64,000 bases of DNA from a virus (IMGVR_UViG_3300009497_000001); one strand, 5' to 3'. Counted from the stretch's first letter, positions 19,741 to 50,540 are shown. The notes: generated from the letters alone by a model not told the origin. Translations and numbers: made by a program.

Positions 19741-20154
19741 ATGAAAAAGGTTCTGTTGTTTATTCTAGCATTGTTTATTACCTCAACTATACAGGGTCAA
19801 CAATGGGTTAGTGATGATAGCTTTGTTAATGAAATAAATGGACACTCAGGTGATCAAGATGAAGATATAGTTATTATAGAATTTTGGGCAGAGTTTAATA
19901 AAGACAATGCTTTTATAGACTGGAAGAAGATAGATGATCTTGATGGTGTAAAATATTTAAGAGCTAACATAGCTCAGTGCCCATCATTAAAGAAAGAATT
20001 TAGAATTAGAATGGTGCCCACCATATTAATTTTTTCAGGAGGAGACGCATTTATAAAGTTTAAAGCTAAAGCCGGTCTAGACCTCCTATGCCCTATAGAC
20101 TATCCTAAGATGGTTAGAGCAATAGAGGTTGTTAGACGAGAAGCTTCTTACTAG
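19741..20154 (+). CDS. Secreted thioredoxin-fold protein lacking the CxxC active site (137 aa)
   Basis: Signal peptide MKKVLLFILALFITSTIQGQ. IIEFWAEFNKDNA aligns with thioredoxin vvdFWApWCgpCk but has no cysteines. MVPTILIFSGGD matches the cis-Pro loop region. Confidence 0.55.
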   Translation: MKKVLLFILALFITSTIQGQQWVSDDSFVNEINGHSGDQDEDIVIIEFWAEFNKDNAFIDWKKIDDLDGVKYLRANIAQCPSLKKEFRIRMVPTILIFSGGDAFIKFKAKAGLDLLCPIDYPKMVRAIEVVRREASY

Positions 20155-21776: not shown

Positions 21777-21788
21777 TGGTTTTTGTTT

Positions 21789-36110: not shown

Positions 36111-36944
36111 TTAAAATATGTATCTTATTGTTTCTAAAGGAAAATATTTTTGATATATTTTCTTAAATTCATGTAACAATCTACCTTTATGCTCTAAAGG
36201 ATATCTCATTACACCCGTTTGATTCTTAACTTCACTTGAGCGTCTCATCAACTCTTTTGCTTCTGGTGAAGCCTTGGCCATTTGATGCTTATGATTAGTT
36301 AATGCTATTACTTCACACTTATTTATGCCTGCATATGCATTTACTTCAGAAAACAAATCATTGTACTCTTCTTTCCAACCTGGATAAAAGATAAGAGGGC
36401 TATAATTTAAATGTACTTCCCAGCCCAATTTCTTGAGTCTATTAACATCAGTTATACGGCTCTCTATTGGCTGCATCTTAGGTTCTAATATATTAGAATA
36501 CTTCTGAGGCATAAGACTAACACGGACCCTTGGTGGTTTATTAAAATGATTTACATCTAACTTCAATAAACCTGGATACTTTGTAGCCATAGTAGTATTA
36601 AGCTGCGGGTGATCATCATAACGTTTAAGATAATCAATCAACGGTTCTGGCATATGTTTCTGCATCATAACTAAATCTGAGTTACACGCTACATCTACCA
36701 TAGTATATATAGGGTCTTGCTGATCAGGATTCTTAAAGTAACCTTTTTCCCATTCAACAACAGACTGAAATATTTCATCAACATTTTCATTGACAAAGAC
36801 TCTTTTACCATTATACCTTGACATATAACAATAAGTGTCTACACAGCCTCCAAAACACCCGTAGATTACATTTGGAGCTATGCAGTTTGCACTATTGTTA
36901 TTTGGTTTGGTTACAAGAGTCTTAGTCTTTTGTTTTTTAATCAT
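36111..36944 (-). CDS. Spore-photoproduct-lyase/COG1533-like putative radical-SAM-related protein with an atypical Cys cluster (277 aa)
   Basis: YGCFGGCVDTYCYMS resembles the GC..gC.YCY cluster of SplB-like enzymes, but the spacing is CX3CX4C, not CX3CX2C. Confidence 0.35.
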   Translation of the reverse strand: MIKKQKTKTLVTKPNNNSANCIAPNVIYGCFGGCVDTYCYMSRYNGKRVFVNENVDEIFQSVVEWEKGYFKNPDQQDPIYTMVDVACNSDLVMMQKHMPEPLIDYLKRYDDHPQLNTTMATKYPGLLKLDVNHFNKPPRVRVSLMPQKYSNILEPKMQPIESRITDVNRLKKLGWEVHLNYSPLIFYPGWKEEYNDLFSEVNAYAGINKCEVIALTNHKHQMAKASPEAKELMRRSSEVKNQTGVMRYPLEHKGRLLHEFKKIYQKYFPLETIRYIF

Positions 36945-38935
36945 TAAAATAACTTTAATTGATTAGCTGATACAGACAATATACTATCTATCTCAGACTC
37001 AATTGCTTGCAAGTAGTAAACTTTATTAATATTATAGTTTTCCCATTTAGGTTCTACTTTCATATCATTATATACTGTTTGCAACCAGCGGCCTGCTTCT
37101 AGTTGTATTTCCCTACCATCTTTCTTATTTACTTTTGTAATCTTAACACCTGACTTAGAAATAAAGTATCTATTAATCTTTTGTAGATCTTCTTCTTTAA
37201 GAACACCACCTTCAATAGATCTAGCCACTTGTTTCCAATCACCTTTAGATTTACCACCAATACAATAATCTAAAATATTCTTATTTGTATCTAAATAATC
37301 ATGAGGTAATACATTATTTACAAAGTATTCATAAATAGCTTTTGGTATTACAAGTTTAGACTTGTTCTTATGCAACTGTAGATCATGGAAATCAAAACGC
37401 CCTTTCAGTTTTACAGGAGCAAAGCTAAACTTATCATTATCTACTTTAAATACATAATGAGGTTGACTCTGCTTAATCTCCCTCCACTTTGTTATATCTA
37501 CTTCTACAAAATTATTTACACCTATGTAATTATTTACATCAGATAGAACTAGTTTTTGATATTCATCATGTTCTAATTCTAGATTAGTAGTTTTCTCCCA
37601 CTCTTCACATATTTGCATATATAAATCTATATGTTCTCTAGGAATGATTGTTTCTACACCATCTGTGTTATGTAATAAAGGAATTGCATTTGGTATTCTT
37701 TCCATAATTTGCTCATAAAGCATCATTAAAGTTAGCTGACCGTTAATAGTAATCTTTAAACATAACTCTGGATCATAAAAGAAACTGTTTTCATCATTGC
37801 TAAGACCAAAAGTTGAATTAAGTATAATCTTATATACATAGTTCATTGGATTGCTCTTAGGAATCTTTTTTCTTTCATCAAAGAACCACTCATATTGATT
37901 ACAAAACTCTTCTTTAGGAAAGTGACCTGGTGAAAACTTATTTCTAATAGCTAGATTAGGATAAAAACTAGTAACATCTGATGACATTATAACCATATCA
38001 TCATCTGATTCATACACACCTTTGCTAGCAGCACCATGAACACCACCTAAACCAAAATCTGTTTTTACATTCTTATAGTTTACGCTATACTTAAAGTTAC
38101 CCTTAAGCTTTGATCCATCAACCTCTAAAGATTTAAACCTTTCATGTAGTGTCTGGAATTCAGGAGATGTAAACTTAATATAAGGCAATATAATATCAGA
38201 TATTTTGATACTATCTCTTCTGGTTCTCATCTGCCTTAAGTCTCTCTTCTGAATGTTCAACTTTTGTGTTAGATAATATCCAAAAAGTTCCTTGCTGATT
38301 CTTGGTTCAGATGCACTGTATAGATTAATACCATAAGTATCTGTTAGTTCCTTACGTAGTTTAATCTGTGACTTTGACCTATTAAATACTTCTTTAGTTG
38401 ACTGAACATCATTAACATTATATTCAATGACAGTATCAATCTCTTCAAGAGTTTTAATCTCAGCTGTATGATCTATAGGCATCTCTAATATATTCTGCCA
38501 GTCCATGCTGTATTGTATCCACTTAAGACTAGAACGTTTAGCCGGGTTATCCCAATGATGTAACTTAAATAAATCTATTTGACCTATCTTCATTTTCCAT
38601 ATGGGGTAATCCATAAACTCTTTGTTATTAGACTTATTGATACAGTACTGTGCGTACTTATAAATTATATTAGCTATCTCACATCCACTTAGATTAGACC
38701 ATAGGTAGTGATTATCTATTATATATTGAGTGATCTGACCATCAAAGGCCAAGCCGTTGTATGATATATGCCACTCTTTATTGTTTACATTTTCTTTTAG
38801 GAAATCTATAAACTTATCAAAATCATTTCTCAGATCATGAACAACAAACGTTTTACTTTCATTTGTCTTATAATGTTCAAATACACCTGTGAAACAATTA
38901 GATAAAGTTTCATAATCCATTACCCAATGCTTCAT
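36944..38935 (-). CDS. Family B DNA polymerase with 3'-5' exonuclease domain (663 aa)
   Basis: Exo I VMDYETL, Exo II YNGLAFDGQ, Exo III YNVNDVQST. Pol motif A SDVTSFYPN, motif B KIILNSTFG, motif C HNTDGV. Confidence 0.9.
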   Translation of the reverse strand: MKHWVMDYETLSNCFTGVFEHYKTNESKTFVVHDLRNDFDKFIDFLKENVNNKEWHISYNGLAFDGQITQYIIDNHYLWSNLSGCEIANIIYKYAQYCINKSNNKEFMDYPIWKMKIGQIDLFKLHHWDNPAKRSSLKWIQYSMDWQNILEMPIDHTAEIKTLEEIDTVIEYNVNDVQSTKEVFNRSKSQIKLRKELTDTYGINLYSASEPRISKELFGYYLTQKLNIQKRDLRQMRTRRDSIKISDIILPYIKFTSPEFQTLHERFKSLEVDGSKLKGNFKYSVNYKNVKTDFGLGGVHGAASKGVYESDDDMVIMSSDVTSFYPNLAIRNKFSPGHFPKEEFCNQYEWFFDERKKIPKSNPMNYVYKIILNSTFGLSNDENSFFYDPELCLKITINGQLTLMMLYEQIMERIPNAIPLLHNTDGVETIIPREHIDLYMQICEEWEKTTNLELEHDEYQKLVLSDVNNYIGVNNFVEVDITKWREIKQSQPHYVFKVDNDKFSFAPVKLKGRFDFHDLQLHKNKSKLVIPKAIYEYFVNNVLPHDYLDTNKNILDYCIGGKSKGDWKQVARSIEGGVLKEEDLQKINRYFISKSGVKITKVNKKDGREIQLEAGRWLQTVYNDMKVEPKWENYNINKVYYLQAIESEIDSILSVSANQLKLF

Positions 38936-40298: not shown

Positions 40299-41294
40299 CT
40301 ATAAGTTAACCTTATTTACTAAGAATTCATAGGGTAAAACATAGTTTCTTTCTTTATAATGGTAATCTGCTGCTTTTAAAACACCACCTAATCCTTCCGC
40401 CCATCCACTTAATGTATCCTGAGTTACATCAAACACATAAGCTTGGTTATATTTGTCTATAACAACAAATTTAAATTCTATAGTATAATCATCACGGTTC
40501 TCTATAGAATCCATAGAGTCCCAAACTAACTTACAATATATAGCTGCCTGTAACCAGTAGTTATAAAAGTCAACAGTCTCTTTAAAATCAGATATAGTCT
40601 TTCCGGTTGTCTTTAAGTCTGATATAACAATGCTCTTTTCTTTATGATCTATGCTATAGAAATCTATATAACCATGTAAACCAAAAGGCATCCCTTTTAA
40701 CTTACAGCTTAAGTATTGTTCTGCATGTGTTTCATAATCATCTAACTCAAAGTCTGTTGACTCATTGCTAAACAATGCCATTACATCTTTCTTATCCTTT
40801 AATATATCAACCTGATCATTTGACCTATCTAATGTCATTTGATCAATTGTATCTTTGTTAGTATTATTTAAGAATTTCCAATAAGACTCATTGTCATCAG
40901 TTCTTACTTTAGCAAGTCTAGCTTCATCAGCTTTCAAAGACTGATATAGATTGACTGACTTTAACGAGTCTAGTATAACAAAGTCTTCACAATCTGCAAG
41001 TGTTTCCGCATCTGTATGAAGTGTTAAATCTTTCAGCACTCTTTTTACAGAATCTGTTGGGATTTTACCAGGCATAAGGTTAAACTTGCTCTCAAAATTT
41101 TCAGGCTCAAATAACAAACAATGTAAAAGCTTGCCTTCTACTAAATGTTTATCCGTTCTTACCTCTCTATCTTTTAATATATAGTCCTTGTAGAACAGGG
41201 ACGGTGAAAATAATAATTTATTTAAAGAAGAGTAGCTAAAGCAGAATTCTTTATCTGCATAAAACTCCTCTTCTTTTTGATAATTTCTATTCAT
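40299..41294 (-). CDS. PD-(D/E)xK (RecB/Cas4-like) nuclease (331 aa)
   Basis: GYIDF...VISDLKTTGK (D...D/ExK) followed by YWLQAAIY (QxxxY). Confidence 0.7.
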   Translation of the reverse strand: MNRNYQKEEEFYADKEFCFSYSSLNKLLFSPSLFYKDYILKDREVRTDKHLVEGKLLHCLLFEPENFESKFNLMPGKIPTDSVKRVLKDLTLHTDAETLADCEDFVILDSLKSVNLYQSLKADEARLAKVRTDDNESYWKFLNNTNKDTIDQMTLDRSNDQVDILKDKKDVMALFSNESTDFELDDYETHAEQYLSCKLKGMPFGLHGYIDFYSIDHKEKSIVISDLKTTGKTISDFKETVDFYNYWLQAAIYCKLVWDSMDSIENRDDYTIEFKFVVIDKYNQAYVFDVTQDTLSGWAEGLGGVLKAADYHYKERNYVLPYEFLVNKVNL

Positions 41295-42456
41295 TTATCA
41301 TTTTTTCTAATTTATCTGCAATATACAAATTTTCTAAGTCAACTTTAAATACTTGAGCACTTTTACCAACCATAGGGTCCATTAGAGTATTCATGAGTTT
41401 TTCTCTTGTTCTGTCTACTGCAAACCTTGTTAATTTTCTATCATTCATTAATGTATTCAGATAACTATTAAATGACCATATACCATTACTGTTATGATTA
41501 CCTTCATAATGTTTTAATCTAGTACGCATTGCTTTGACATTGACTGAATTCCAGTTATTAGTATTTTTGAACCAATCATAATGCCAAAAATATAAACCTG
41601 ATACCACATCAAATGATTTTTCTATGTTACAGTTAGCCAACATCTCCACAGCTAAAGATCTATTATCTATATCTGTACTAGTTATCATCTTTTCAATGTC
41701 ATCATACTTATCATTTTCAATTACGGCTAGCTCAGAATCAATTATAGCTGATATTGATGAATCTAGAACTAGTTGACTAGTAGAGCTTAATAAATTATTA
41801 AAAGCTACATAGTTTTTCTTTGGTAAGATCCAATCAAATCCACTATCATAATCATTGAGCTCTTCTTTTTTCATCCATTTAACTAGATCATCATACATCT
41901 GTTCTCTTATATTTTTACTTTTATGATTGATACTATAATAACCTTGGTTCAGACGAAATTCAATCATACATGCAGGAGTAGCATTACTAAGAAAACCTCT
42001 AAGTACATCTAAAGCTTCATCAGTAAACCAATCAAAGTCTTTCATATGCTTAATTATCTTATAGGCATCACTATATGCTATAGATTTATTCCATGTTCTT
42101 TCAAAAAGAGTATCAAATAATTTTAAGGATACAATAGATATGTCTGCTTTTGTATTATCTCTAATAACCTTGCAGTTATATCTTTCCTTTAATAAATCTA
42201 CCTTTTGTCTAGGTAGAGTTAATTTAGGAAACCTATATATCTTTTTGTCTTGTAAATCTATATTGTCTACATTATCAGGTATAGGCAATCCTAACAATTT
42301 AAAGTCTTCTTCTTCAATTTGATACTTATAATTGCTATATAAATATTGACATTCCTGTTCACTCCATTTTACAGCCACACCTGATAACTGATTTTTATCC
42401 CAATTACCAGTACCTTCAGGATACATATTAAATTCTAATTTAAATCTTTTTTTCAT
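41287..42456 (-). CDS. Hypothetical protein (389 aa), tandem paralogue of 42461-43492; tentative BRCT-like segment
   Basis: KKIYRFPKLTLPRQKVDLLKERYNCKVIRDNTKADISIV aligns with KKAFILPRCNVSQDRLKAALKEHGITVTNDYELADLIIG. C-terminal halves are also similar (DNRSLAVEML.. vs DDKALALKII..). Confidence 0.6.
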   Translation of the reverse strand: MKKRFKLEFNMYPEGTGNWDKNQLSGVAVKWSEQECQYLYSNYKYQIEEEDFKLLGLPIPDNVDNIDLQDKKIYRFPKLTLPRQKVDLLKERYNCKVIRDNTKADISIVSLKLFDTLFERTWNKSIAYSDAYKIIKHMKDFDWFTDEALDVLRGFLSNATPACMIEFRLNQGYYSINHKSKNIREQMYDDLVKWMKKEELNDYDSGFDWILPKKNYVAFNNLLSSTSQLVLDSSISAIIDSELAVIENDKYDDIEKMITSTDIDNRSLAVEMLANCNIEKSFDVVSGLYFWHYDWFKNTNNWNSVNVKAMRTRLKHYEGNHNSNGIWSFNSYLNTLMNDRKLTRFAVDRTREKLMNTLMDPMVGKSAQVFKVDLENLYIADKLEKMINE

Positions 42457-42460
42457 AATT

Positions 42461-43492
42461 TTATTTTAAATATTTTTGATACTCTTTTTTAACATCCACT
42501 TGAAACGTATAAAGGTCTCTATTGTGAATGCTTATTTCTCTTCTTACTATAGGCTCAAGATACTTAAATGTTACTTTATCAAGCTTATCTTGCTCCTCTA
42601 ACCATAATATCATGTCTTGTGCACTCTTACGGTAAAAATCATTAAAGTTTGATACATCTAGCCAATACTGCAAATCTTTATCTCTATTATCTGCATATGT
42701 TATACTATTACAGTCTTGTGCAAACTGCCACAATAAATGATAGTTTTTCTTATAGTCAATAGTAGGAATGATTTTAAGAGCCAAAGCTTTATCATCACCA
42801 TATGAATTTAACTGAGTCTTAAGATCATTAAGAAGCTGTTCATCAAGAGTCATTTTAGTAGCAGACGCATGAAGTACTGTCTCAGGATCAATAACACTAA
42901 CATCTGTAGTATCAATTATATGAGCCAGATTCAAAGCCATACCAGTAATTATCCAGTTATCATATAGGCTTTCTTCTACGTCTATATCATAGTATCTTAC
43001 TGTATCAGTAACCTTGGCTGTAATAATACATTCTAGGCCTGAATCAGCAATTTTTTTAAGAACACCAAGTTTATTAACATCTCCTTTTGTAGTTTCATAA
43101 TTCCATATCTTATTCATCATTATTGTAGTAGGAATATTTTCTGCATTACTTAATTTATGAGTAGTTATTTCCTCATGACCTATAATTAGATCTGCTAATT
43201 CATAATCATTTGTTACAGTTATACCATGCTCTTTAAGAGCAGCCTTTAATCTATCTTGTGATACATTACATCTAGGTAGTATAAAAGCTTTCTTTTTAGT
43301 TCTAAAAGTTTGGTCATCCTCTGTAGGTTCCAATAGTATAGTGTTTATCTTTTCATATGTTGTCTGATCTTGAGTACATAATACTTTATTAATACCTGTA
43401 CTAGAAACTAACCCATATGTAGGGTCAGTCTCTAGTCCAAAGTATACTAAAGCATCAGTATCAAAATTTTGATATACTGATTTATTTGCCAT
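42461..43492 (-). CDS. Hypothetical protein (343 aa), tandem paralogue of 41287-42456; tentative BRCT-like segment
   Basis: See 41287-42456. Confidence 0.6.
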   Translation of the reverse strand: MANKSVYQNFDTDALVYFGLETDPTYGLVSSTGINKVLCTQDQTTYEKINTILLEPTEDDQTFRTKKKAFILPRCNVSQDRLKAALKEHGITVTNDYELADLIIGHEEITTHKLSNAENIPTTIMMNKIWNYETTKGDVNKLGVLKKIADSGLECIITAKVTDTVRYYDIDVEESLYDNWIITGMALNLAHIIDTTDVSVIDPETVLHASATKMTLDEQLLNDLKTQLNSYGDDKALALKIIPTIDYKKNYHLLWQFAQDCNSITYADNRDKDLQYWLDVSNFNDFYRKSAQDMILWLEEQDKLDKVTFKYLEPIVRREISIHNRDLYTFQVDVKKEYQKYLK

Positions 43493-43493
43493 T

Positions 43494-44762
43494 TTATTTC
43501 ATTGTCATTTGGACAATCTCTGGGATCATCATCAATTTGTTAAACTTCTTTTTATTACCATTAAAGATGGTACGTACAATTAAATACTTAAGATCATTAG
43601 TAAAATAATCTTTAGTACATAAAGCCTTCAACCTATCAGTTACTTTCTGGTTAATAGTATTATCCTGTGAATATACTACAGCATAATTACCAAGTCTTGT
43701 AGCTAATGTTGATGCAATATCTGCACGATATGTATCATCTTTACCTATACAAGATCTTAACTCATTAAAGATATATTGTTCTCCATCATGTGTCAATAAA
43801 TCTTTAGGTGTAACCAGTTTATCTAGCTTGTTATTAATGAATGTAGTAAACATAGAAGCAAATGCATCTCCAACACTACCCTCACCAATCATCTGAATCA
43901 TGCTGAGGTTATCTTCAAAAGATTCAAAGCTTGATATAGAGTTAAAGAATGTTGTTATAGATCTAGCATTAGTCTCTTGCGTTACTAATTCAGGATGAAG
44001 TAATAAAAAGTTAATACATCTACTATCTATACCTGCACCTTCTGCCCACTGAGCCCATACATTTACATCAAACTTAAGATTAGCTGTAACATATCTAGTC
44101 TTCTGTGCACTATCTACACTGTTAACCATATAGTCACCATTATCCGGGTTAGCTGTTAATATAATATGCCAGTTCTTAGGTAGTGTCCAAGATATATAAG
44201 ACTGTCTATCTATCAATTCCATAACTGCTTGAATAAATCTTGTGTCAGCTCTATTCCAGTCATCTAATAATAGTATACCACCTTCTTTAGCATCAGCTAT
44301 CCATTCAGGTGCACAATAAGACATTCTATTTTTACCAGTAATTTTATATCCTTGTTTAAGATATTCTTGTACAGCAAGTTCATCAACCCATTGACCAACT
44401 TTCTTGGTTACAGTTTGATTTAAGTTAGCTAGACTAGCACCTGCAGCTCTTTGTGCTGCTGTAACCATAGCAATGTCATTATTCTTTACTGCTATTTTCT
44501 TTTCTTTATACATCTGAAACTGTCTTACAGGGAAACCTACAAGATCACCTAGCTCCTCAATCTGTGCTAAGTTTAATTTTACAAATGCTAAATCATTTTC
44601 TTTAGCCAGCTCTACTATTGTAGAAGTTTTACCTATACCTGATTCACCCACAACTTCCACTGATACTGGTCCTTTACCATTATCTTGAAGATATCTGTTA
44701 TTAGATATAATGTGATTTACAAATCCTTTTAGTTCTGTTACATTTAAATTTACTTGTGCCAT
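43494..44762 (-). CDS. MoxR/AAA_5-type AAA+ ATPase (422 aa)
   Basis: Walker A VVGESGIGKTS, Walker B GGILLLDDWNRAD. Adjacent to its usual VWA partner. Confidence 0.75.
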   Translation of the reverse strand: MAQVNLNVTELKGFVNHIISNNRYLQDNGKGPVSVEVVGESGIGKTSTIVELAKENDLAFVKLNLAQIEELGDLVGFPVRQFQMYKEKKIAVKNNDIAMVTAAQRAAGASLANLNQTVTKKVGQWVDELAVQEYLKQGYKITGKNRMSYCAPEWIADAKEGGILLLDDWNRADTRFIQAVMELIDRQSYISWTLPKNWHIILTANPDNGDYMVNSVDSAQKTRYVTANLKFDVNVWAQWAEGAGIDSRCINFLLLHPELVTQETNARSITTFFNSISSFESFEDNLSMIQMIGEGSVGDAFASMFTTFINNKLDKLVTPKDLLTHDGEQYIFNELRSCIGKDDTYRADIASTLATRLGNYAVVYSQDNTINQKVTDRLKALCTKDYFTNDLKYLIVRTIFNGNKKKFNKLMMIPEIVQMTMK

Positions 44763-44771
44763 TTTCTTTTA

Positions 44772-45935
44772 TTAATTAAGTTGAATTTTCTGTCCTGGTA
44801 ACACTTCATTTATACTGCAGTTAGAACTATGAACCCATAAAGTATTATTAGGGCAGTTCTCTGGAGCATATGCTTCACCATCTGTTAAATATATAAGAGC
44901 TGTATATTGCCCTTTGTTTTCATTATAGTAGTCTATTACTGGTTGGAAGCTTGTTCCACCACGACCATGTATTTCCCAATCTTTTCTTGGATTAAACTCT
45001 TTTACACTATTTAGTTTAGTATCACATTGAGCTACTGTAATCTTATGACCTGTCTTATGCATATGCGTAAGTTCACTAAAGAATTCCTTTAGCTCATCAT
45101 TGTTTACAGATCCGCTTGTGTCAACACCAACAAGTATATGATTCTTAAATTTAATCTTAAGACCTGGGTTAGCTGCATAACGTTTATTATACTTACGTCT
45201 CAGCTTCTTTGTATAAACTACACTAGAGTTACCTGCAAATCTTCTTAGATAAGCTTTCCAATCAAACTTAGGAGGTTCTATATGCATCAGCCTATGTATA
45301 AGCTCAGCTAACTCACCCGGTATATTACCTTGTTTCTTTACTGTTTGCTCAGCAGATTCTTTTAACTGATGCTCAATTTGTTTTTGCATTAGTTTTTTAT
45401 CAGCTTCAGGTAATGAATCAAAATCATCCCATGTACCATGACAATATTGTGACTCACCATTCATCTGATCCATAAGATTATCTAAAGAAGGTGAAGTACC
45501 ATCTTGGTGTGCCTGTTCAAGTAATTCATAGTATTTATCCGTACCAGCCTTCCTAGGTAAATTTATCTCAGGAAAACTTGATAGTAATAAACCACCTTCA
45601 GGTAGTTTACTTTCCAGTATGTACTGGTTGATTTCTAAATCTGCAGCTATATTAAATAATTTATGATCTGAATATAGACTTCTAGTTATAAGATGACCAA
45701 ATGCAATATGCAATAGCTCATGCTTAATTAAACCAAATCTATGATCTTCACTAAGGTTATTATAAAACTCAGGGTTTATAGTCAATTGACATCCAATATT
45801 ATGTTTGCTTACTCCTGCAGTAGGCAGTTGCATGCTATACTTTTTATTGATACCAATTAAAAAGAGCCCGTAAAAGGGCTCTGCAAATATTAAACTTTTG
45901 GTTGTCCTAGCAACCTGATCTTGTATGTTAATCAT
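44772..45935 (-). CDS. VWA-domain protein with an N-terminal HEXXH metallopeptidase-like domain (DUF2201-like), 387 aa
   Basis: HELLH in LIKHELLHIAFGH. MIDAS ILVGVDTSGS (DxSGS). Confidence 0.7.
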   Translation of the reverse strand: MINIQDQVARTTKSLIFAEPFYGLFLIGINKKYSMQLPTAGVSKHNIGCQLTINPEFYNNLSEDHRFGLIKHELLHIAFGHLITRSLYSDHKLFNIAADLEINQYILESKLPEGGLLLSSFPEINLPRKAGTDKYYELLEQAHQDGTSPSLDNLMDQMNGESQYCHGTWDDFDSLPEADKKLMQKQIEHQLKESAEQTVKKQGNIPGELAELIHRLMHIEPPKFDWKAYLRRFAGNSSVVYTKKLRRKYNKRYAANPGLKIKFKNHILVGVDTSGSVNNDELKEFFSELTHMHKTGHKITVAQCDTKLNSVKEFNPRKDWEIHGRGGTSFQPVIDYYNENKGQYTALIYLTDGEAYAPENCPNNTLWVHSSNCSINEVLPGQKIQLN

Positions 45936-46236
45936 TATCTTTTATTTTTCTAAGTATGTCCATATAAACTTTATCTGCTTTGCTTTTTTCTATATATGCA
46001 TAAACTCTATTTGTATTAAAAGACCCTATCTCAAAGCTATACTCTACTGCTATACAAAAATCTACACGATCTTTAAATAGCAATGCTTTAGCCATAAGCT
46101 TATCTATAATGTCTTTGTCTTTATAGTTTGCATTATTATATATTTCACAAGCTAAAGCTCTATCTTCAAGTAATCCTGAAAACATTTCTTTATATGTAAA
46201 AAACTCATCTATTGTTATTATTCTCTTCTTTGCCAT
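45928..46236 (-). CDS. Hypothetical protein (102 aa from the ATG; the track start at 46242 is TTG)
   Basis: ATG at 46236 (MAKKRIITIDE...). Confidence 0.55.
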   Translation of the reverse strand: MAKKRIITIDEFFTYKEMFSGLLEDRALACEIYNNANYKDKDIIDKLMAKALLFKDRVDFCIAVEYSFEIGSFNTNRVYAYIEKSKADKVYMDILRKIKDND

Positions 46237-46609
46237 TTTCAATTAATTCTATCCATACACCGGGGTTTTTTTTATCATAAGAATATTGTTCAAATGCTGG
46301 TATAATAAACTCAGCATTATCATCTTCAATCCATCCGTGTTTAACCATATCATCTTGTACTGTCTGTGCAGGATTAATATAATCAAACTTATGACGGCTT
46401 CCTCTTATAAACTCAAATGATACTTTAACAGGTAGATCATTCTTAGCAACTTCAGCTTTAAAATCCTCAGCATACTTAGCATATATATCTTTGGTAGCCT
46501 TTCTATAATTCATTACAGCTTTGCTAGCAATAAAATATTTACCTGTCCAACGCCTACCGTTTTTACTTGAGGGAACATTGCCTGGTATCCACCATCTTAT
46601 TTTTGTCAT
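46205..46609 (-). CDS. RusA-like Holliday junction resolvase (134 aa)
   Basis: IPGNVPSSKN..., PVKVSFEF..., KFDYINPAQTVQDDMVKHGWIEDDNAEFI parallels the RusA pattern (vpPS.N ... rrDlDNl.K.v.Dal...gvi.DD.qi). Confidence 0.5.
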   Translation of the reverse strand: MTKIRWWIPGNVPSSKNGRRWTGKYFIASKAVMNYRKATKDIYAKYAEDFKAEVAKNDLPVKVSFEFIRGSRHKFDYINPAQTVQDDMVKHGWIEDDNAEFIIPAFEQYSYDKKNPGVWIELIENGKEENNNNR

Positions 46610-46611
46610 AA

Positions 46612-47589
46612 TTATTTATTTAATGTTGTTTTTAATAATGGTTTTAGCATAGCATGTGTCTTATCAAATCCTATTTCTACCATAGCATCTGATATGTCTT
46701 TGCATATAGTTGGTGTACATCCATTTATATTATATGCATCTGCATATCTTTTAACTGCATGTTTACCTGCATCATCATTATCAAACAACGTTATTATACT
46801 TTTGTACTTTTTCTTAAGATTTGCTATGATATGGGGTTTAATCATAGTGTTCTCAGAGTCTGGACTAATAACTTCTAGGTTATAACCCATACCTTTTAAA
46901 CACATTGCATCTTTAAGAGATGAGCAAATCACCAAGTAAGGTTCTTTATACTGCAGCTGATCTATTCCCTGGATATAGTTCTTTACTTTATGAAACTTAT
47001 GCTTTTTACTATGAGGCTGATATATTTTATATACTTCACCATTTCTATCAAAGTAACCATAGCAATGTTTGCTTCCAATCTTTAAAGATTCTATTTCCAA
47101 TGCATCTTGCTTAATCATATTAAAATATTCTATTGGCTTTACATTATACTGATCTAATAATGTTTTGCCTATTCTATATGATAGCCAGTAATTAGCATCA
47201 TCCTGATTCCATTTTCTATACTTTATAAAGTCAATCTCCCATTTAGCCTGAGGCACAAACTCAACACTGACTTTACCATTTTCCTGTATATACTTATTGT
47301 AATCTTCTATTATTCTTCTTGTAGCCTGAGGATAACCCAACTTAAACATGTGTCTAATTAAGTCTGACTTGTTACCTCCAATACCTGTAGAAAAGTCTTT
47401 AAACTTATATTGCATTATGGTTTTATCCACGTATATGCAAAAGCTTGGAGTCTTGTCATTAGGATTAAATATTGAATTAATCTTAATGTCTTGACCTGTT
47501 AGCTGTTCAGGTAAGTCTAGATAATACTGAAACACCCAGTAACTTGGTACGTCTGTTTCTTCTAATATTAAATTTTTAGTGCTGAACAT
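46612..47589 (-). CDS. DnaG-like/Toprim DNA primase (325 aa)
   Basis: Toprim acidic motif ITLFDNDDAGK. KTPSFCIY resembles the primase zinc-binding-region remnant but lacks the upstream Cys/His ligands. Confidence 0.7.
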   Translation of the reverse strand: MFSTKNLILEETDVPSYWVFQYYLDLPEQLTGQDIKINSIFNPNDKTPSFCIYVDKTIMQYKFKDFSTGIGGNKSDLIRHMFKLGYPQATRRIIEDYNKYIQENGKVSVEFVPQAKWEIDFIKYRKWNQDDANYWLSYRIGKTLLDQYNVKPIEYFNMIKQDALEIESLKIGSKHCYGYFDRNGEVYKIYQPHSKKHKFHKVKNYIQGIDQLQYKEPYLVICSSLKDAMCLKGMGYNLEVISPDSENTMIKPHIIANLKKKYKSIITLFDNDDAGKHAVKRYADAYNINGCTPTICKDISDAMVEIGFDKTHAMLKPLLKTTLNK

Positions 47590-47653
47590 AATCCAAATAT
47601 ATTAAAAAGATATGGGCCCAGCATTATACTGAGCCCACTCTTTTGGTTTTATA

Positions 47654-48325
47654 TTACAGATCAAAGTCACTTCCAGAAGCTGTTGCAGGCTCAAAATTTG
47701 AAGCTGTTGTTTCTTTCTTTAAATAAGGTCTAAAATGATTTGTATTATTTCTATCAAATGTTAATAGGTTAGAGCTTTCTTTATCTAACTCTTCTAATGG
47801 CATACCATCTTTACTTCTCTTAGGTAAAAACAAGTCATTATTTACATAACCTTCTTTGTTTTCCCACTCACGTGCACCTAAGCAAGCATTGATATATCCT
47901 GTTTCAGAACATACATTAGCAGCCTTAACCATAAAGTCTTCAATTGTATTTGCCTCAATAGCATCAAGCTCATTTCTTTTACCTACTACTTCAGATAAAA
48001 ATACCATAGCTTTTAATACTTCAGTATCACGGCTAATCTCATTACCATTTGCTAATGTTGCATCTTTAAATGGATATGGTGAGAATCTAACTCTACCTAC
48101 TTGGCCTGCATAACGCTCACCATTAGGATTATTCATATCTTTTAAGAAACCATTAAATTCTCCAGTAACAGGCTCAGACTCTACATGTAATGTAATATTA
48201 TATGCATCTGAATCATAAGGTGTTTGGTCAAATGTAATAGAATTGATTTTGATTTTGTGGTTACCCACTCCAATAACTGGTTTGATGCTACCTGATCCGG
48301 CAGACATGTCTTTAGTACTTAACAT
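47654..48325 (-). CDS. Hypothetical protein (223 aa); sits where the ssDNA-binding partner usually lies next to Sak4-type ATPases
   Basis: Gene context only. ATG start. Confidence 0.55.
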   Translation of the reverse strand: MLSTKDMSAGSGSIKPVIGVGNHKIKINSITFDQTPYDSDAYNITLHVESEPVTGEFNGFLKDMNNPNGERYAGQVGRVRFSPYPFKDATLANGNEISRDTEVLKAMVFLSEVVGKRNELDAIEANTIEDFMVKAANVCSETGYINACLGAREWENKEGYVNNDLFLPKRSKDGMPLEELDKESSNLLTFDRNNTNHFRPYLKKETTASNFEPATASGSDFDL

Positions 48326-48350
48326 AATTTACTTTTTTATTAATTATTAA

Positions 48351-49034
48351 TTATTGATTATATTTTTCAATACAATCTTTTACAAATTGTAGGTCATTTG
48401 GAATAAACTTATCCTCAAACATACCCATAGGTGATTTACATGTGTTCTCTCCATTGTTTTGAGTTTCAAAACCATATTCAAGTTCACCATCATCATTTTT
48501 ATTTACTTTACCAAATAATACTATAGAGAATAGTCCTTCTAAAGTTAGTGTATTGTCAATCATTTTGCCAATAGTTTTTGCTTTAACTTTTCTATTTCCA
48601 TTTATATCAGTTGAATCTTCTGAGTGAGTTAAGAAAATGATAGTCAAATCTTCTCTCAAGTCTTTAGGAAGTTTTGCAACCATTGCTAAGTTAGCTGCAA
48701 TCTGAGTGAATTTATCATAACCTTTCTCATTAGCTCTGTCAAAATATTCAAAAGAACTCATATACTGCCAATCATCTACTACTAATGTTTTGATATGGCT
48801 CATTTTTTCATCTACATGCTTTATTGCTTTTATTATTCCTGCACTTGATGAAGCTGATGTCAGATTACCTTTTGGGTTATCTTTACTAATTTGTGTGTAT
48901 TTGCTTTTCCATCCCTGGAACGGTAATGGTTTGTTAGCAATGTTTATAATGAAAGTCTCTTTAGGATTTAATGTTCTGATTGAGGTAGACTTTCCTGTAC
49001 CTGAGTCAGCAATTACTAATACGCTGTTTGCCAT
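48351..49034 (-). CDS. Sak4-like/AAA_24 RecA-fold ATPase (227 aa)
   Basis: Walker A LVIADSGTGKST, Walker B TLVVDDW, IIFLTHSE. Confidence 0.7.
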   Translation of the reverse strand: MANSVLVIADSGTGKSTSIRTLNPKETFIINIANKPLPFQGWKSKYTQISKDNPKGNLTSASSSAGIIKAIKHVDEKMSHIKTLVVDDWQYMSSFEYFDRANEKGYDKFTQIAANLAMVAKLPKDLREDLTIIFLTHSEDSTDINGNRKVKAKTIGKMIDNTLTLEGLFSIVLFGKVNKNDDGELEYGFETQNNGENTCKSPMGMFEDKFIPNDLQFVKDCIEKYNQ

Positions 49035-49035
49035 A

Positions 49036-49590
49036 TTACTTTTTTTGAATTACGTTAATTAATTTATTTAATGTTGCATTTATTTCTGATAATGCGTTTA
49101 TCAGCTCTGCATTGGAGAGGAGGGGAGCAGTGTCAGTGCTTTCATCTGGATTAGGCAAATCTGGATTTGCAAAATCTATTATAGCTTTACCCCTATTTGT
49201 TACATCATTTATAACCTTTAGTTCACTAACAGGTATAATGTGTCTCTGAAATCCTGAATTACTTGTTATGATTTCATACTCTTCCTGCCAGTGTGGATTA
49301 TGTTTATGATAATATAGTGTCCTTTTTGGATCTTCTGTATCATAATCTATAGATACAAATTCTGTATATATATCTTCTCCTTTTTCAAATTCACTTGGAA
49401 AAAAGCTTACATGTAGCTCATCCTTTCCAGTTGGCCTGTAAGCCATCTTAGGTATGTATAATGCATTAATCTTTCCTTCTGTCTGAAAGTAATCTTCATG
49501 CTCTTCTCTTAGTGATGCAACCTTCTGCTTTCTTTCTTGCGGTGTTAGTCCCATCTTTTTTTTGTTATTTAAGTTTTTAGTATTTATCAT
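49036..49590 (-). CDS. Hypothetical protein (184 aa)
   Basis: ATG start; overlaps the helicase stop by 4 nt. Confidence 0.6.
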   Translation of the reverse strand: MINTKNLNNKKKMGLTPQERKQKVASLREEHEDYFQTEGKINALYIPKMAYRPTGKDELHVSFFPSEFEKGEDIYTEFVSIDYDTEDPKRTLYYHKHNPHWQEEYEIITSNSGFQRHIIPVSELKVINDVTNRGKAIIDFANPDLPNPDESTDTAPLLSNAELINALSEINATLNKLINVIQKK

Positions 49591-50540
49591 CTGCGTTCTT
49601 GTTGTTGAGGTGTTGCCATTTCTTCTATTTGCATTTGTTCAAACTTAGCTTTGAAAAATGACATACGTGCATCACCATTTCTTGCTTTAAGAAAATGTAA
49701 AACCAATGTTCTATCATTTTCTATTATATATCTATCTGGTCCATAATATCTAATCTTTTGTTTAGCTGGGCGGTTGATACCTATTAACATATCTGCATGC
49801 TGTAGCATTGCATCTGAGCCAAATATATCTGACTCAAGTATATAGTTACCATACTTACCATCTATAGCCCTGTCCGGATTATCTATGTTCCTATTTAGTT
49901 GTGATAAAGCAATAAACAAACAAGGATAATCTCTCTTACACTGTGTAAAGAATTCACCTAACTCAAATAACATATCTAATGTGTTATTCTGGTATGGTGC
50001 TCTCTTGACTAACATTGTATGATCAAGTGTTATCATTGTATTTACTCCTTTATGCTGTGTCATATACTGATCAATTTGCTCACGCATCTGATTAACAGTC
50101 ATAGGTGTACTAATTATATCAACCGGGTGCTTTACTCTTTCTTTAGCATATAAATGGCATTTATTTAATGTATCTGTATTTAATATTGATCCTGCACTAC
50201 ATAATTCTTTGTATGTTTTACCAGTTATAGAACTAAATTCTCTGATAGCTGAGGTTCTCCCTACCATCTCAAACTGAAATTCTAATACTCTAAACTTATC
50301 ATTTGGATTTAAAGCAAATGATTCTCTAATGATTTGATCCTTAATCAGTGTCTTACCTGAACCAGGTCTACCACCAATTACTGTCAAAGTATTCCATTCT
50401 ATACCATCAGTGGCAGCATCATTAAACTTAGGCCACGGAGTATAGATTGATTTCTCTTCTCCTGTTGACCTAGCATACATATATTTAAGTGCATCATTAA
50501 ATGCAGCATATTGCCCAATCCATGATGGTTTATTTTTCAT
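49587..50540 (-). CDS. DnaB-like replicative helicase, C-terminal RecA-type domain only (317 aa)
   Basis: H1 VIGGRPGSGKT, H2 MITLDH, H3 ALSQLNR, H4 LKARNG. Confidence 0.8.
   Translation of the reverse strand: MKNKPSWIGQYAAFNDALKYMYARSTGEEKSIYTPWPKFNDAATDGIEWNTLTVIGGRPGSGKTLIKDQIIRESFALNPNDKFRVLEFQFEMVGRTSAIREFSSITGKTYKELCSAGSILNTDTLNKCHLYAKERVKHPVDIISTPMTVNQMREQIDQYMTQHKGVNTMITLDHTMLVKRAPYQNNTLDMLFELGEFFTQCKRDYPCLFIALSQLNRNIDNPDRAIDGKYGNYILESDIFGSDAMLQHADMLIGINRPAKQKIRYYGPDRYIIENDRTLVLHFLKARNGDARMSFFKAKFEQMQIEEMATPQQQERR

What the first reader, a model, noticed from the sequence alone, without database searches (positions are those of the whole stretch)
41287..45935. Four-gene cassette: two paralogous BRCT-like proteins plus a MoxR-type AAA+ ATPase plus a VWA/HEXXH protein
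An AAA_5/MoxR-like ATPase (GESGIGKTS, LLLDDW) is followed by its classical partner, a VWA protein (VDTSGS) that also carries an HELLH metallopeptidase-like domain. Immediately upstream are two tandem paralogues (389 and 343 aa). They share a segment whose pattern (KK.F.LP......R..LK..L.E.G..V......AD..I.G) is reminiscent of BRCT phosphopeptide/DNA-damage modules. MoxR-VWA pairs are chaperone-like remodelling systems. Their role in a phage replication module is undefined, which makes this a candidate uncharacterised system for replisome or host-factor remodelling, or for counter-defence.
Basis: partly seen in the sequence, partly recalled or inferred. Interest (0 to 1): 0.65.

Follow-up and report, generated by a model that had tools for sequence, protein, structure and literature searches.

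The report
Phage MoxR–VWA module with BRCT-like paralogues
An abundant, uncultured marine crAss-like phage carries, inside its DNA-replication operon, a known but functionally unexplained ATPase/metalloprotease-VWA pair joined to a new family of BRCT-like proteins, which points to protein remodelling on DNA rather than virion assembly.

Summary
Four back-to-back ORFs lie exactly at 41287-45935, all on the minus strand.

- **g1** is a DUF2201_N zincin domain plus a DUF2201 VWA domain with an intact MIDAS.
- **g2** is a MoxR/AAA_5-type ATPase. Together g1 and g2 are the family of phage N4 gp25/gp24, core genes of N4-like phages with unknown function.
- **g3 and g4** show no pairwise BLASTP similarity. 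A profile built from third-party sequences hits both (179 and 51 bits), and hhalign joins the families (E 1.7e-5 direct; 2.5e-17 and 1e-52 through intermediates). They are ancient paralogues.
- **BRCT-like domain:** a confident AlphaFold model of g4 shows BRCT topology at residues 72-140. Foldseek, a profile search of PDB sequences and Pfam all point to BRCT, with PARP1 the best match, but all below formal thresholds.
- **Fifth member:** the small gene upstream (45928-46242) is a stand-alone copy of the helical module of g3 and g4.

The block is conserved in every related lineage with readable context. The ATPase/VWA pair also occurs widely without the BRCT-like genes. Function is inferred, not shown. 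It is a new variant of a known kind and moderately interesting.

The parts
45928..46242 (-). h104: small helical protein (104 aa from TTG; more likely 102 aa from the ATG at 46236). It is a stand-alone copy of the helical module found in g3 and g4. Its end overlaps the g1 start by 8 nt.
   Evidence: The h104 family profile against the intermediate (INT) family gives hhalign probability 91.4%, E 8.9e-7 over 95 columns. The h104 HMM finds positional orthologues just upstream of the DUF2201 gene in L089 (69 bits), L091 (58 bits) and L085.
44772..45935 (-). g1: zincin-like metallopeptidase domain (DUF2201_N, residues 46-253) plus a VWA-like domain (DUF2201, residues 268-376). This is the N4 gp25 family.
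   Evidence: Pfam 9.5e-22 and 4.3e-16. PHROG 1314 at 1.5e-65. tblastn finds 416 phage records, mostly Schitoviridae.
45708..45722 (-). g1 HExxH zinc-binding/catalytic motif (HELLH, residues 72-76).
   Evidence: Translation checked. Conserved in all six lineages of the clade and in the N4-like, AD45 and Moorella homologues.
45108..45122 (-). g1 MIDAS DxSxS motif (DTSGS, residues 272-276). The further MIDAS residues are the Thr of GGT (residue 328) and the Asp of TDGE (44874-44885).
43494..44762 (-). g2: MoxR/AAA_5-type AAA+ ATPase, N4 gp24 family. It is the most conserved gene of the module.
   Evidence: Pfam AAA_5 22.7 bits (cut-off 22). PHROG 1297 at 1.6e-33. BLASTP to the N4-like, AD45 and Moorella ATPases gives 3e-8 to 8e-10; these pairwise E-values are against a small 11-sequence database. 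Midasin AAA 1e-5. Median identity of 88% across 80 relatives.
44622..44648 (-). g2 Walker A (GESGIGKTS, residues 39-47).
44256..44273 (-). g2 Walker B variant LLLDDW (residues 164-169). It reads 'DD' instead of the canonical 'DE' and is followed by NRA.
   Evidence: DD is present in all six lineages of this clade. The N4-like, AD45 and Moorella ATPases have DE or EE.
42461..43492 (-). g3: 343-aa protein of a new family with no Pfam or PHROG match. It is paralogue A, the 'g3-type'.
   Evidence: 454 metagenomic homologues. The INT HMM scores it at 179 bits. The AlphaFold model is unusable (pLDDT 40.6).
43088..43303 (-). g3 BRCT-like region (residues 64-135: RTKKKAFILPRCNVSQDRLKAALKEHGITVTNDYELADLIIGHE...).
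   Evidence: It aligns with the modelled BRCT-like domain of g4. The A4 region profile scores it at 95 bits. That same profile finds PARP1 BRCT in the PDB.
42707..42859 (-). g3 helical (HEAT-like) module core (residues 212-262).
   Evidence: hhalign alignments. The h104 HMM hits residues 217-252.
41287..42456 (-). g4: 389-aa protein, paralogue B, the 'g4-type'. With h104 it is the fastest-evolving gene of the module.
   Evidence: 344 homologues. AlphaFold pLDDT 88.6, pTM 0.74. The INT HMM scores it at 51 bits, E 3e-15, over HMM positions 17-350. Median identity of 47%.
42037..42255 (-). g4 BRCT-like domain (residues 68-140; model strands and helices b72-75, a83-93, b96-98, b106-109, a111-117, b119-121, a128-140).
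   Evidence: DSSP of the model. Foldseek local hits to PARP1 BRCT (2cok probability 0.98, rmsd 2.5 Å over 51 columns; 2le0 probability 0.97), and to the PARP1 BRCT in 7scy_K, MCPH1, BRCA1 and ECT2 BRCTs.
41587..41724 (-). g4 helical module core (residues 245-290: ...YDDIEKMITSTDIDNRSLAVEMLANCNIEKS...).
   Evidence: Model helices 248-258 and 263-274. It is shared with g3, with the INT family and with h104.
40299..41294 (-). Downstream neighbour: a PD-(D/E)XK nuclease. It always follows the BRCT-like gene or genes and overlaps the end of g4 by 8 nt.
   Evidence: Pfam PDDEXK_1 1.6e-7. PHROG 412 'exonuclease VIII' 2.3e-15. Synteny in all lineages.

Best explanation
**Shown.** The region is part of a long minus-strand replication/recombination operon of an uncultured, cosmopolitan marine crAss-like phage. 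The gene order is DnaB, Sak4-like annealase, primase, RusA, h104, g1, g2, g3, g4, PD-(D/E)XK nuclease, then a DNA polymerase.
- g1 and g2 are the phage form of a MoxR AAA+ / VWA co-chaperone pair, the N4 gp24/gp25 family. Here the VWA protein carries an N-terminal zincin (HExxH) domain and a complete MIDAS site.
- g3 and g4 are ancient, strongly diverged paralogues of a new protein family. Each has a BRCT-like alpha/beta domain rich in conserved basic residues, a second alpha/beta region and a C-terminal helical (HEAT-like) module.
- h104 is a free-standing copy of that helical module.

**Inferred.** The five genes form a 'ternary' MoxR-VWA system that acts during genome replication.
- The g2 ring supplies ATP-driven pulling or remodelling.
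- g1 grips a target through its MIDAS site and may cut it with its zincin domain.
- g3, g4 and h104 are the lineage-specific third components. The BRCT-like domains would place the machine on DNA ends, nicks or phosphorylated partners. The shared helical module would be the handle recognised by g1 or g2.
- The likely job is assembly, turnover or removal of protein complexes on replicating or recombining phage DNA. It would work next to the exonuclease and polymerase encoded immediately downstream.
For: - **Domain identities and intact motifs:**
- **Paralogy of g3 and g4.** A profile built only from third-party 'intermediate' proteins hits g3 (179 bits) and g4 (51 bits, E 3e-15) over nearly their full lengths. 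hhalign gives g3x against g4 E 1.7e-5 over 217 columns, INT against g4 E 2.5e-17, and INT against g3x E 1e-52. BFVD holds two proteins of one virus that both match the g4 model.
- **BRCT-like domain:** model topology, Foldseek, the region profile against PDB sequences with PARP1 BRCT at E 0.0046 and 0.0088, and Pfam BRCT as the commonest family among members (12 of 75, best 2.9e-4). The invariant residues of g4 concentrate in this basic region.
- **Linkage.** The order DUF2201 gene, g2 orthologue, one or two BRCT-like genes, PD-(D/E)XK gene is found in 80 close relatives and in all six further contigs, from five more distant lineages, with readable context (L085, L087/L088, L089, L091, L092). 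The g2-to-g3 junction is always tight (a 1-nt overlap to a 6-nt gap), even where other genes are inserted between g1 and g2 (L085, L091).
- **Helical module on both sides.** Genes carrying it bracket the ATPase/VWA pair.
- **Replication-phase setting.** In the four other phage groups examined, the pair lies near replication or nuclease genes in at least three: N4-like, Moorella and, less clearly, AD45. N4 gp24/gp25 are middle-class transcripts (PMC4193335).
- **Expression, weak.** A 2930-nt metatranscriptome contig spans the end of g2, g3 and sequence beyond.
- **Established knowledge.** MoxR-VWA pairs remodel complexes through MIDAS-peptide contacts, as in Midasin, RavA-ViaA and ATV (PMC7159879).
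Against: - No physical or genetic data exist for any of the five proteins.
- Synteny of the whole replication module is conserved across all relatives. Adjacency alone therefore cannot separate a functional link between g1/g2 and g3/g4 from mere inheritance.
- The MoxR/DUF2201 pair works without g3/g4 homologues in N4-like, AD45 and Moorella phages, so the BRCT-like proteins are not obligatory partners.
- BRCT similarity is below formal thresholds everywhere: Foldseek E 0.14, Pfam below gathering, and only about 50 residues aligned.
- g3 has no usable model.
- The Walker B 'DD' may mean slow or altered ATP hydrolysis.
- The MIDAS-handle role of the helical module is pure inference.
Confidence: 0.4

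Rival explanations
1. Virion-assembly chaperone. The MoxR/VWA-peptidase pair helps fold, process or load structural or cargo proteins, for example the giant virion RNA polymerase. g3 and g4 would then be unrelated replication accessory proteins that merely sit next to it.
For: Iyer et al. proposed this role for the same peptidase-vWA plus MoxR pair in group 2.2 jumbo phages, by analogy with the tail-development system of the archaeal virus ATV (PMC7824862). The pair occurs in N4-like phages. It also occurs in this crAss-like phage, whose giant ORF matches crAss RNAP subunits. Both groups package giant RNA polymerases.
Against: The pair lies among replication and nuclease genes, not structural genes, in this phage, and near such genes in N4-like and Moorella phages and, less clearly, in AD45. 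N4 gp24/gp25 are middle, not late, transcripts (PMC4193335). The top organism groups among 416 matching records include no Bacteroides crAss phages, which also package RNAPs. This model does not explain the tight g2-g3 coupling or the helical-module genes on both sides.
Confidence: 0.2
2. Host take-over or counter-defence. The ATPase and protease unfold and cut host proteins such as nucleoid proteins or DNA-bound defence complexes. The fast-evolving g4 and h104 would be the specificity adaptors.
For: g4 (median 47% identity) and h104 (48%) evolve far faster than g2 (88%), g1 (83%) or the DNA polymerase (81%) in the same 80 genomes. Copy number varies between one and two BRCT-like genes, and L085 has extra small helical genes. 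Bacterial MoxR-vWA ternary conflict systems likewise combine a conserved pair with a rapidly diverging helical third component (PMC7159879).
Against: There are no matches to defence or anti-defence models (PADLOC). Other non-enzymatic genes of the module evolve just as fast (h195 at 55%), so the rate is not specific. The BRCT-like region and the helical motif are the conserved parts of g4, not the variable parts. The position is fixed in the replication core, not in a variable accessory island.
Confidence: 0.2
3. Loader-like AAA+ complex. g2 together with the two inactive-looking paralogues g3 and g4 forms a heteromeric clamp-loader-like or helicase-loader-like assembly. g1 would be a separate protein.
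For: Eight of the twelve top full-length Foldseek PDB hits of the g4 model are clamp-loader subunits (RFC, E. coli gamma complex). Clamp-loader entries also appear in the BFVD list. RFC1 uses a BRCT domain beside its AAA+ module to bind 5' DNA (PMC9293004). The arrangement is one ATPase gene plus two paralogous non-ATPase genes of about 350 aa with tight translational coupling.
Against: Those hits are not significant (E 0.12-0.5, probability 0.11 or less, TM about 0.1, rmsd about 24 Å). No sliding clamp was found in the module. No sliding clamp is expected for a family A-type polymerase (my own knowledge, not tested here). g2 belongs to the MoxR/Midasin clade, not the RFC clade. Two lineages have only one BRCT-like gene.
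Confidence: 0.05

Closest known systems
Phage N4 gp24 (ATPase) / gp25 (vWFA) pair, core genes of N4-like phages (Schitoviridae)
   Same: Both are a MoxR-like ATPase next to a DUF2201_N + DUF2201 (HExxH + VWA/MIDAS) protein. g1 aligns over 94-99% of its length with these proteins, and g2 aligns with their ATPases. In both cases the pair lies in the replication/middle-gene region, and the function is unknown (PMC4193335).
   Different: Identity is only 23-28%. The gene order is reversed: ATPase then VWA in N4-like phages, VWA then ATPase here. g2 is about 80 aa longer, with a longer stretch between Walker A and Walker B, and it has Walker B DD instead of DE. N4-like loci have no g3, g4 or h104 homologues.
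MoxR / metallopeptidase-vWA pair of group 2.2 jumbo phages (Iyer et al. 2021, PMC7824862)
   Same: The two-gene architecture is the same: a MoxR ATPase with a vWA co-chaperone fused to an N-terminal metallopeptidase. An AD45 record annotation links the family to RaK2 gp25.
   Different: That pair was proposed to act in virion assembly, and no BRCT-like partner was described. Here the setting is a replication operon of a roughly 115-kb crAss-like phage.
Bacterial MoxR-vWA 'ternary' conflict systems (Kaur et al. 2020, PMC7159879)
   Same: Both combine a conserved MoxR + vWA pair with a third, rapidly diverging component built largely of alpha-helical modules. The third component varies in copy number.
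   Different: The third component here is not a VMAP, iSTAND, FtsH or beta-propeller protein. No effector domain is present. The system is phage-encoded and there is no PADLOC match. The g2 orthologues are not the bpMoxR type, although L085 carries an additional bpMoxR gene.
BRCT domains of PARP1, NAD-dependent DNA ligase and RFC1
   Same: The beta1-alpha1-beta2-beta3-alpha2-beta4-alpha3 topology in the g4 model. Sequence-profile and structure searches both pick PARP1 BRCT first and also find LigA BRCT. These BRCTs bind DNA, and the phage domain sits in a DNA-metabolism operon.
   Different: The similarity is sub-threshold and covers about 50 residues. The canonical phosphopeptide pocket could not be checked. 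The domain is embedded in a new multi-domain architecture.
Rea1/Midasin (AAA_5 ring + MIDAS domain) and, by analogy, SPRTN/Wss1 with p97/Cdc48
   Same: Midasin is the best solved-structure sequence match of g2. In Midasin a MIDAS domain grips an acidic residue of assembly factors and the AAA ring pulls them off a nucleoprotein complex (PMC7159879). SPRTN/Wss1 pair a zincin protease with an AAA+ unfoldase on DNA (my own knowledge). g1 gives only a faint SprT hit (E 0.017).
   Different: Here there are separate small proteins instead of one giant polypeptide. Protease activity and substrates are unknown. The SprT relation is not established.

Membership tests
MoxR-type AAA+ ATPase (Pfam AAA_5 clade) | Match to the family model above its curated threshold. 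| tested here: met
   AAA_5 22.7 bits against a cut-off of 22, but over residues 134-221 only. PHROG 1297 'ATPase' 1.6e-33. Midasin AAA domains 1e-5.
MoxR-type AAA+ ATPase (Pfam AAA_5 clade) | Walker A GxxGxGK[ST], sensor-1 Asn and arginine finger. | tested here: met
   GESGIGKTS, TANP and KTR, conserved in six lineages and aligned with the N4-like, AD45 and Moorella ATPases.
MoxR-type AAA+ ATPase (Pfam AAA_5 clade) | Canonical Walker B hhhhDE with a catalytic Glu. | tested here: not met
   The motif is LLLDDWNRA. 'DD' is present in all six lineages of the clade, while outgroup phage ATPases have DE or EE. The following NRA context is MoxR-like.
MoxR-type AAA+ ATPase (Pfam AAA_5 clade) | Helix-2 insert and hexameric ring. 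| not testable with these tools
An extra segment of about 60 aa between Walker A and Walker B, relative to the N4-like ATPase, is visible in the alignments.
MoxR-type AAA+ ATPase (Pfam AAA_5 clade) | Adjacent VWA-domain partner gene. | tested here: met
   g1 ends 9 nt before g2. The pairing is conserved in relatives.
DUF2201_N/DUF2201 metallopeptidase-VWA proteins (N4 gp25 family, COG3864) | Both Pfam domains above threshold and in the right order. | tested here: met
   78.3 bits (cut-off 23.2) and 59.6 bits (cut-off 26.4).
DUF2201_N/DUF2201 metallopeptidase-VWA proteins (N4 gp25 family, COG3864) | HExxH zincin motif and complete MIDAS (DxSxS ... T ... D). | tested here: met
   HELLH, DTSGS, GGT and TDGE, all conserved. 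Proteolytic activity itself was not tested.
BRCT domain | Fold topology beta1-alpha1-beta2-beta3-alpha2-beta4-alpha3. | tested here: met
   Met for g4: model with pLDDT 88.6, elements at 72-140. For g3 it is only inferred through homology, because the g3 model has pLDDT 40.6.
BRCT domain | Significant structural match to solved BRCT domains. | tested here: inconclusive
   PARP1 BRCT 2cok has probability 0.98 and rmsd 2.5 Å, but E 0.14 and only 51 columns. Several other BRCTs rank among the top local hits.
BRCT domain | Match to Pfam BRCT models above the gathering score. | tested here: not met
   There is no hit for the full proteins. Among 75 region subsequences, BRCT is the commonest family (12 members, best E 2.9e-4) and BRCT_2 has 4 (best 2e-4), all below threshold. 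The region profile against PDB sequences gives PARP1 BRCT E 0.0046.
BRCT domain | Phosphate or phosphopeptide pocket (Ser/Thr-Gly after beta1, Lys in alpha2), or DNA binding. | not testable with these tools
   Conserved basic residues lie in and after beta1 and in alpha1: in g3, K66-K68, R81 and K83 are invariant and K87 nearly so; in g4, R75, K85, K90 and R99 are invariant and R83 and K96 nearly so. No coordinates or binding data are available.
MoxR-vWA ternary conflict systems (VMAP / iSTAND / FtsH / beta-propeller types) | One of the four defined third components, with effector domains. | tested here: not met
   g3, g4 and h104 have no Pfam, PHROG, NCBIfam or PADLOC family. They resemble the idea of a third component, not the family.
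AAA+ clamp loader subunits | Significant fold match, and a sliding clamp in the genome. | tested here: not met
   Foldseek E 0.12 or higher, probability 0.11 or lower, TM about 0.1. No clamp was found among the module ORFs.

The most novel reading that the evidence does not exclude
A phage-encoded, DNA-targeted unfoldase/protease machine. BRCT-like adaptors (g3, g4) would dock on DNA ends, nicks or stalled complexes and hand DNA-bound proteins to the MIDAS domain and zincin protease of g1 and to the g2 AAA+ ring. This would be functionally analogous to eukaryotic SPRTN/Wss1 working with p97/Cdc48, or to Midasin stripping factors from a nucleoprotein particle. It would clear host nucleoid proteins, DNA-protein crosslinks or DNA-bound defence complexes from the replicating phage genome. 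It would also give the first functional handle on the N4 gp24/gp25 core genes.
Probability: 0.12. Interest if true: 0.8.

Novelty: new variant of a known kind. Interest (0 to 1): 0.5.

Why it matters
The MoxR/VWA-peptidase pair is one of only 14 core genes of N4-like phages. It recurs in jumbo, Alteromonas, Thermus and Moorella phages, yet its role is unknown. The only published proposal is virion assembly, made by analogy.

This clade offers a different clue. The pair is fixed inside the replication operon and is flanked by three genes of a previously unrecognised family. Two of them carry a BRCT-like domain, a module that elsewhere binds DNA or phosphoproteins. That makes a DNA-linked remodelling role directly testable by pull-downs, DNA-binding assays and ATPase or protease assays.

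It also adds a new BRCT-like protein family that is widespread in marine and freshwater viromes: 454 and 344 homologues at the 90% clustering level, and near-identical sequence in at least 20 marine runs.

Finally, it flags a propagated mis-annotation. DUF2201 proteins are widely labelled 'HNH endonuclease' in PHROGs and RefSeq.

Tried and rejected
- **Pairwise BLASTP of g3 against g4:** nothing (E 0.89). It would wrongly have rejected paralogy.
- **hhalign with shallow family alignments:** Insufficient until deeper profiles were built.
- **AlphaFold of g3 with 30 close homologues:** pLDDT 40.6, unusable. Both prediction jobs were then spent, so g1, g2 and complexes could not be modelled.
- **Megablast of the region and tblastn of g3 and an intermediate protein against GenBank phages:** no match. 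No cultured relative carries the family.
- **PADLOC and NCBIfam:** nothing useful.
- **The search for related loci with the intermediate alignment or single proteins:** an error or no loci. Replaced by the look-up of encoding contigs.
- **Third homologue search with the intermediate profile:** only 41 unnamed hits and no new distant lineage.
- **Literature searches** for DUF2201, COG3864 and Schitoviridae with MoxR: no functional study found.
- **Clamp-loader reading of g4:** considered because of the Foldseek ranking, rejected on the scores and the absence of a clamp.
- **Helical module against Pfam:** no family.
- **Promoter scan:** not above shuffled expectation, 112 against 106.5. The organism probably uses other promoter types.
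- **First read-laying run:** The second call gave only weak evidence of expression.
- **Cellulophaga phage phi14:2 and Nitrincola phage 1M3-16** (related polymerases): no g1-g4 or h104 homologues within 12 kb of the polymerase gene.

Full report
**1. What is in the sequence**

- g1, 44772-45935, 387 aa
- g2, 43494-44762, 422 aa
- g3, 42461-43492, 343 aa
- g4, 41287-42456, 389 aa

The intergenic gaps are 9, 1 and 4 nt. g4 overlaps the next gene by 8 nt, and the small gene upstream (h104, 45928-46242) overlaps the g1 start by 8 nt. Because all genes are on the minus strand, transcription runs h104, g1 (VWA/HExxH), g2 (ATPase), g3, g4. All quoted motifs were verified by translation.

**2. Setting**

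The block lies in a long co-directional replication/recombination operon. The genes identified, in transcription order, are:
- an SF-type helicase
- a DnaB-like helicase (49587-50540)
- a Sak4-like annealing protein (48351-49034)
- a primase (46612-47589)
- a RusA-like resolvase (46205-46609)
- the five genes described here
- a PD-(D/E)XK nuclease (40299-41294)
- two small unknowns
- a DNA polymerase (36944-38935)

A terminator-like hairpin sits just upstream of the primase gene, and no boundary signal lies within the block.

The window's giant ORF (2-12286, at least 4094 aa) matches only the giant RNA polymerase subunits of crAss-like phages. The order DnaB, x, Sak4, x, primase mirrors the crAss-like Cellulophaga phage phi14:2. 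The source is therefore a marine crAss-like phage. Related contigs are 112-125 kb long, and near-identical sequence is present in at least 20 marine metagenome runs. No cultured phage in GenBank matches the region.

**3. g1 and g2 are a known pair**

*g1.* It matches Pfam DUF2201_N (putative metallopeptidase, 9.5e-22) and DUF2201 (VWA-like, 4.3e-16). Its HExxH and all MIDAS elements (DxSxS, GGT, TDGE) are conserved across the clade and in distant phage homologues.

*g2.*
- It matches AAA_5 just above threshold and PHROG 1297 at 1.6e-33.
- Its best solved-structure sequence match is Midasin's AAA domains (1e-5).
- It aligns with the 'MoxR-like' ATPases of an N4-like Salmonella phage, Alteromonas phage AD45 and a Moorella phage.
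- One deviation is clade-wide: Walker B reads hhhhDD[WYF]NRA instead of DE.

*Distribution and literature.* tblastn of g1 finds 416 phage records. Most are N4-like phages (Schitoviridae), with an adjacent ATPase in each of the three loci I opened. In the literature these are N4 gp24 ('unknown') and gp25 ('vWFA'). They are two of the 14 core genes of N4-like phages and belong to the middle transcripts (PMC4193335). Iyer et al. recognised the same MoxR plus peptidase-vWA pair in group 2.2 jumbo phages and proposed a virion-assembly role by analogy to the archaeal virus ATV (PMC7824862). The label 'HNH endonuclease' that PHROG 1314 and RefSeq attach to these proteins is not supported by any motif I saw.

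**4. g3 and g4 are paralogues, but only profiles show it**

The evidence came in steps.
1. BLASTP gives nothing.
3. A full HMMER scan of 1.84 billion representatives with the g3 profile returned 181 proteins.
4. About 34 of these, 330-399 aa long, score with both the g3 and the g4 HMMs, and do so collinearly.
5. With an expanded g3 alignment, hhalign against g4 gives E 1.7e-5 over 217 columns (g3 64-308 against g4 68-346).
6. The intermediate family matches g4 at E 2.5e-17 (310 columns) and g3 at E 1e-52.
7. An HMM built only from the intermediates hits window g3 (179 bits) and g4 (51 bits, E 3e-15, HMM positions 17-350).
8. Independently, the g4 model finds four viral proteins in BFVD, two of them from the same virus.

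The duplication is old. In three more distant lineages the first copy is g3-type and the second is g4-type. Two lineages have a single copy.

**5. BRCT-like domain**

The g4 model is confident (pLDDT 88.6, pTM 0.74). Residues 72-140 form beta-alpha-beta-beta-alpha-beta-alpha, which is the BRCT topology.

Three further searches point the same way.
- **Foldseek against PDB.** It has no significant full-length match. Its high-probability local hits are BRCT domains: PARP1 2cok (probability 0.98, rmsd 2.5 Å over 51 columns), PARP1 2le0 (0.97), then the PARP1 BRCT in 7scy_K and the MCPH1, BRCA1 and ECT2 BRCTs.
- **Sequence profile against PDB chains.** A sequence-only profile of this region, built from 75 members of all three sub-families, ranks PARP1 BRCT first (E 0.0046 and 0.0088). 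SMARCC1, PARP1 again and the T. thermophilus ligase BRCT follow.
- **Member-by-member Pfam scan.** BRCT is the commonest family (12 of 75, best 2.9e-4), ahead of BRCT_2.

The three lines converge, but none reaches a formal threshold, and only the first half of the domain aligns. I therefore call the domain BRCT-like with moderate confidence. For g3 the fold is inferred from homology, because its own model failed. The region holds many of the invariant basic residues of both families.

**6. A fifth member**

The conserved helical motif downstream of the alpha/beta part (g4 '...DDIEKMITSTDIDNRSLAVEMLANCNIEKS', g3 '...LKTQLNSYGDDKALALKIIPTIDYKKN') also occurs in the small protein encoded just upstream of the DUF2201 gene.
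- The intermediate-family HMM hits those small proteins in L085 (32 bits) and L089 (26.5 bits), and the window's h104 only weakly.
- The h104 family profile matches the intermediate family at probability 91.4%, E 8.9e-7, over 95 columns.
- The h104 HMM recovers the positional orthologues and then the helical regions of the g3/g4-type proteins.

The ATPase/VWA pair is thus bracketed by three genes that share one helical module. No Pfam family matches the module.

**7. Co-occurrence**

All 80 IMG/VR relatives keep the order primase, RusA, h104, g1, g2, g3, g4, PD-(D/E)XK..., polymerase. Six further contigs, from five more distant lineages (g2 orthologues 47-59% identical where measured), all show the DUF2201 gene, the g2 orthologue, one or two BRCT-like genes and then the PD-(D/E)XK gene. 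Insertions occur only between g1 and g2: a bpMoxR plus a 463-aa gene in L085, and a 162-aa gene in L091. The g2-to-g3 junction stays tight throughout.

Two limits apply. The whole module is syntenic in these phages, so adjacency is weak proof of a functional unit. And the pair exists without any g3, g4 or h104 homologue in the N4-like, AD45 and Moorella loci, while phi14:2 and Nitrincola phage lack the whole block near their related polymerases.

Evolutionary rates differ sharply. Median identity to the window is g2 88%, g1 83%, polymerase 81%, g3 77%, h104 48% and g4 47%.

**8. Interpretation**

What is shown is the anatomy described above. What I infer is a 'ternary' MoxR-VWA system working in the replication phase. 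The g2 ring and the g1 MIDAS/zincin co-chaperone would be the engine. g3, g4 and h104 would be lineage-specific adaptors or clients. Their BRCT-like domains would address DNA or phosphorylated partners, and their shared helical module would be the handle.

Support comes from:
- the replication-gene context of the pair in this phage and in at least three of the four other phage groups examined;
- the middle-gene status of the pair in N4 (PMC4193335);
- the bracketing by module-sharing genes;
- the tight g2-g3 coupling;
- the general MIDAS-grip / AAA-pull mechanism of the family (PMC7159879).

Rivals are a virion or cargo-assembly chaperone with unrelated neighbours, a host take-over or counter-defence protease with fast-evolving adaptors, and a loader-like AAA+ complex. 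The last rests only on non-significant Foldseek hits to clamp-loader subunits and on no clamp gene being found. No experiment exists for any of these, and my confidence in the mechanism is about 0.4.

**9. Novelty and verdict**

The ATPase/VWA-peptidase pair is known. The g3/g4/h104 family, its BRCT-like domain, its ancient tandem duplication and its fixed association with the pair in a crAss-like marine phage clade are, as far as the libraries and papers searched show, undescribed. This is a new variant of a known kind. It is of moderate interest because it offers a testable, DNA-linked hypothesis for a long-unexplained core gene pair.

Noticed in passing
window 2-12286 (+), runs off the window start; also 12296-18061 (+): The window begins inside a giant ORF of at least 4094 aa, followed by a 1921-aa ORF. 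The giant ORF matches only the giant 'RNAP catalytic subunit' proteins of crAss-like phages (23-33% identity over short stretches, E about 1e-6). The window phage is therefore crAss-like. Both N4-like phages and this clade package giant RNA polymerases and both carry the MoxR/DUF2201 pair. A link was not tested.
   Followed up: partly
window 44772-45935 and homologues in GenBank phages: PHROG 1314 and many RefSeq records label DUF2201_N + VWA proteins (the N4 gp25 family) as 'HNH endonuclease'. The proteins have an HExxH zincin motif and a MIDAS site and no HNH motif. The label looks like a propagated mis-annotation.
   Followed up: partly
window 44256-44273 (g2 Walker B): The Walker B catalytic Glu is replaced by Asp (hhhhDD[WYF]NRA) in all six lineages of this phage clade. 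The N4-like, AD45 and Moorella ATPases keep DE or EE. This may indicate slow or regulated hydrolysis.
   Followed up: partly
L085 4260-6754: One distant relative carries a second MoxR gene (Pfam bpMoxR, 367 aa) and a 463-aa unknown ORF. They are inserted between the DUF2201 gene and the g2 orthologue. The same contig has two small h104-like genes.
   Followed up: partly
window 47612-47638 (-): A strong terminator-like hairpin (12-bp stem, 6 GC pairs) lies in the 64-nt gap between the 223-aa gene and the primase gene. It may mark a transcription-unit boundary or a regulatory site upstream of the primase-to-polymerase stretch.
   Followed up: no
window 41287-42456 (g4 model): Eight of the twelve best full-length Foldseek PDB hits of the g4 model are clamp-loader subunits (RFC, E. 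coli gamma complex), all at non-significant scores. No sliding clamp gene was found in the window.
   Followed up: partly
window 46612-50540 compared with L095 (Cellulophaga phage phi14:2) 15865-22044: The order DnaB, unknown, Sak4-like, unknown, primase is shared with crAss-like phage phi14:2. That phage has no RusA, h104, g1-g4 or PD-(D/E)XK block after its primase. The block therefore behaves as an addition relative to that cultured relative.
   Followed up: partly
window 20151-22769 (-): Ribonucleotide reductase large and small subunit genes lie on the minus strand between plus-strand blocks of very large unknown ORFs (1342 and 1109 aa; the latter has Big_9/cadherin-like domains).
   Followed up: no
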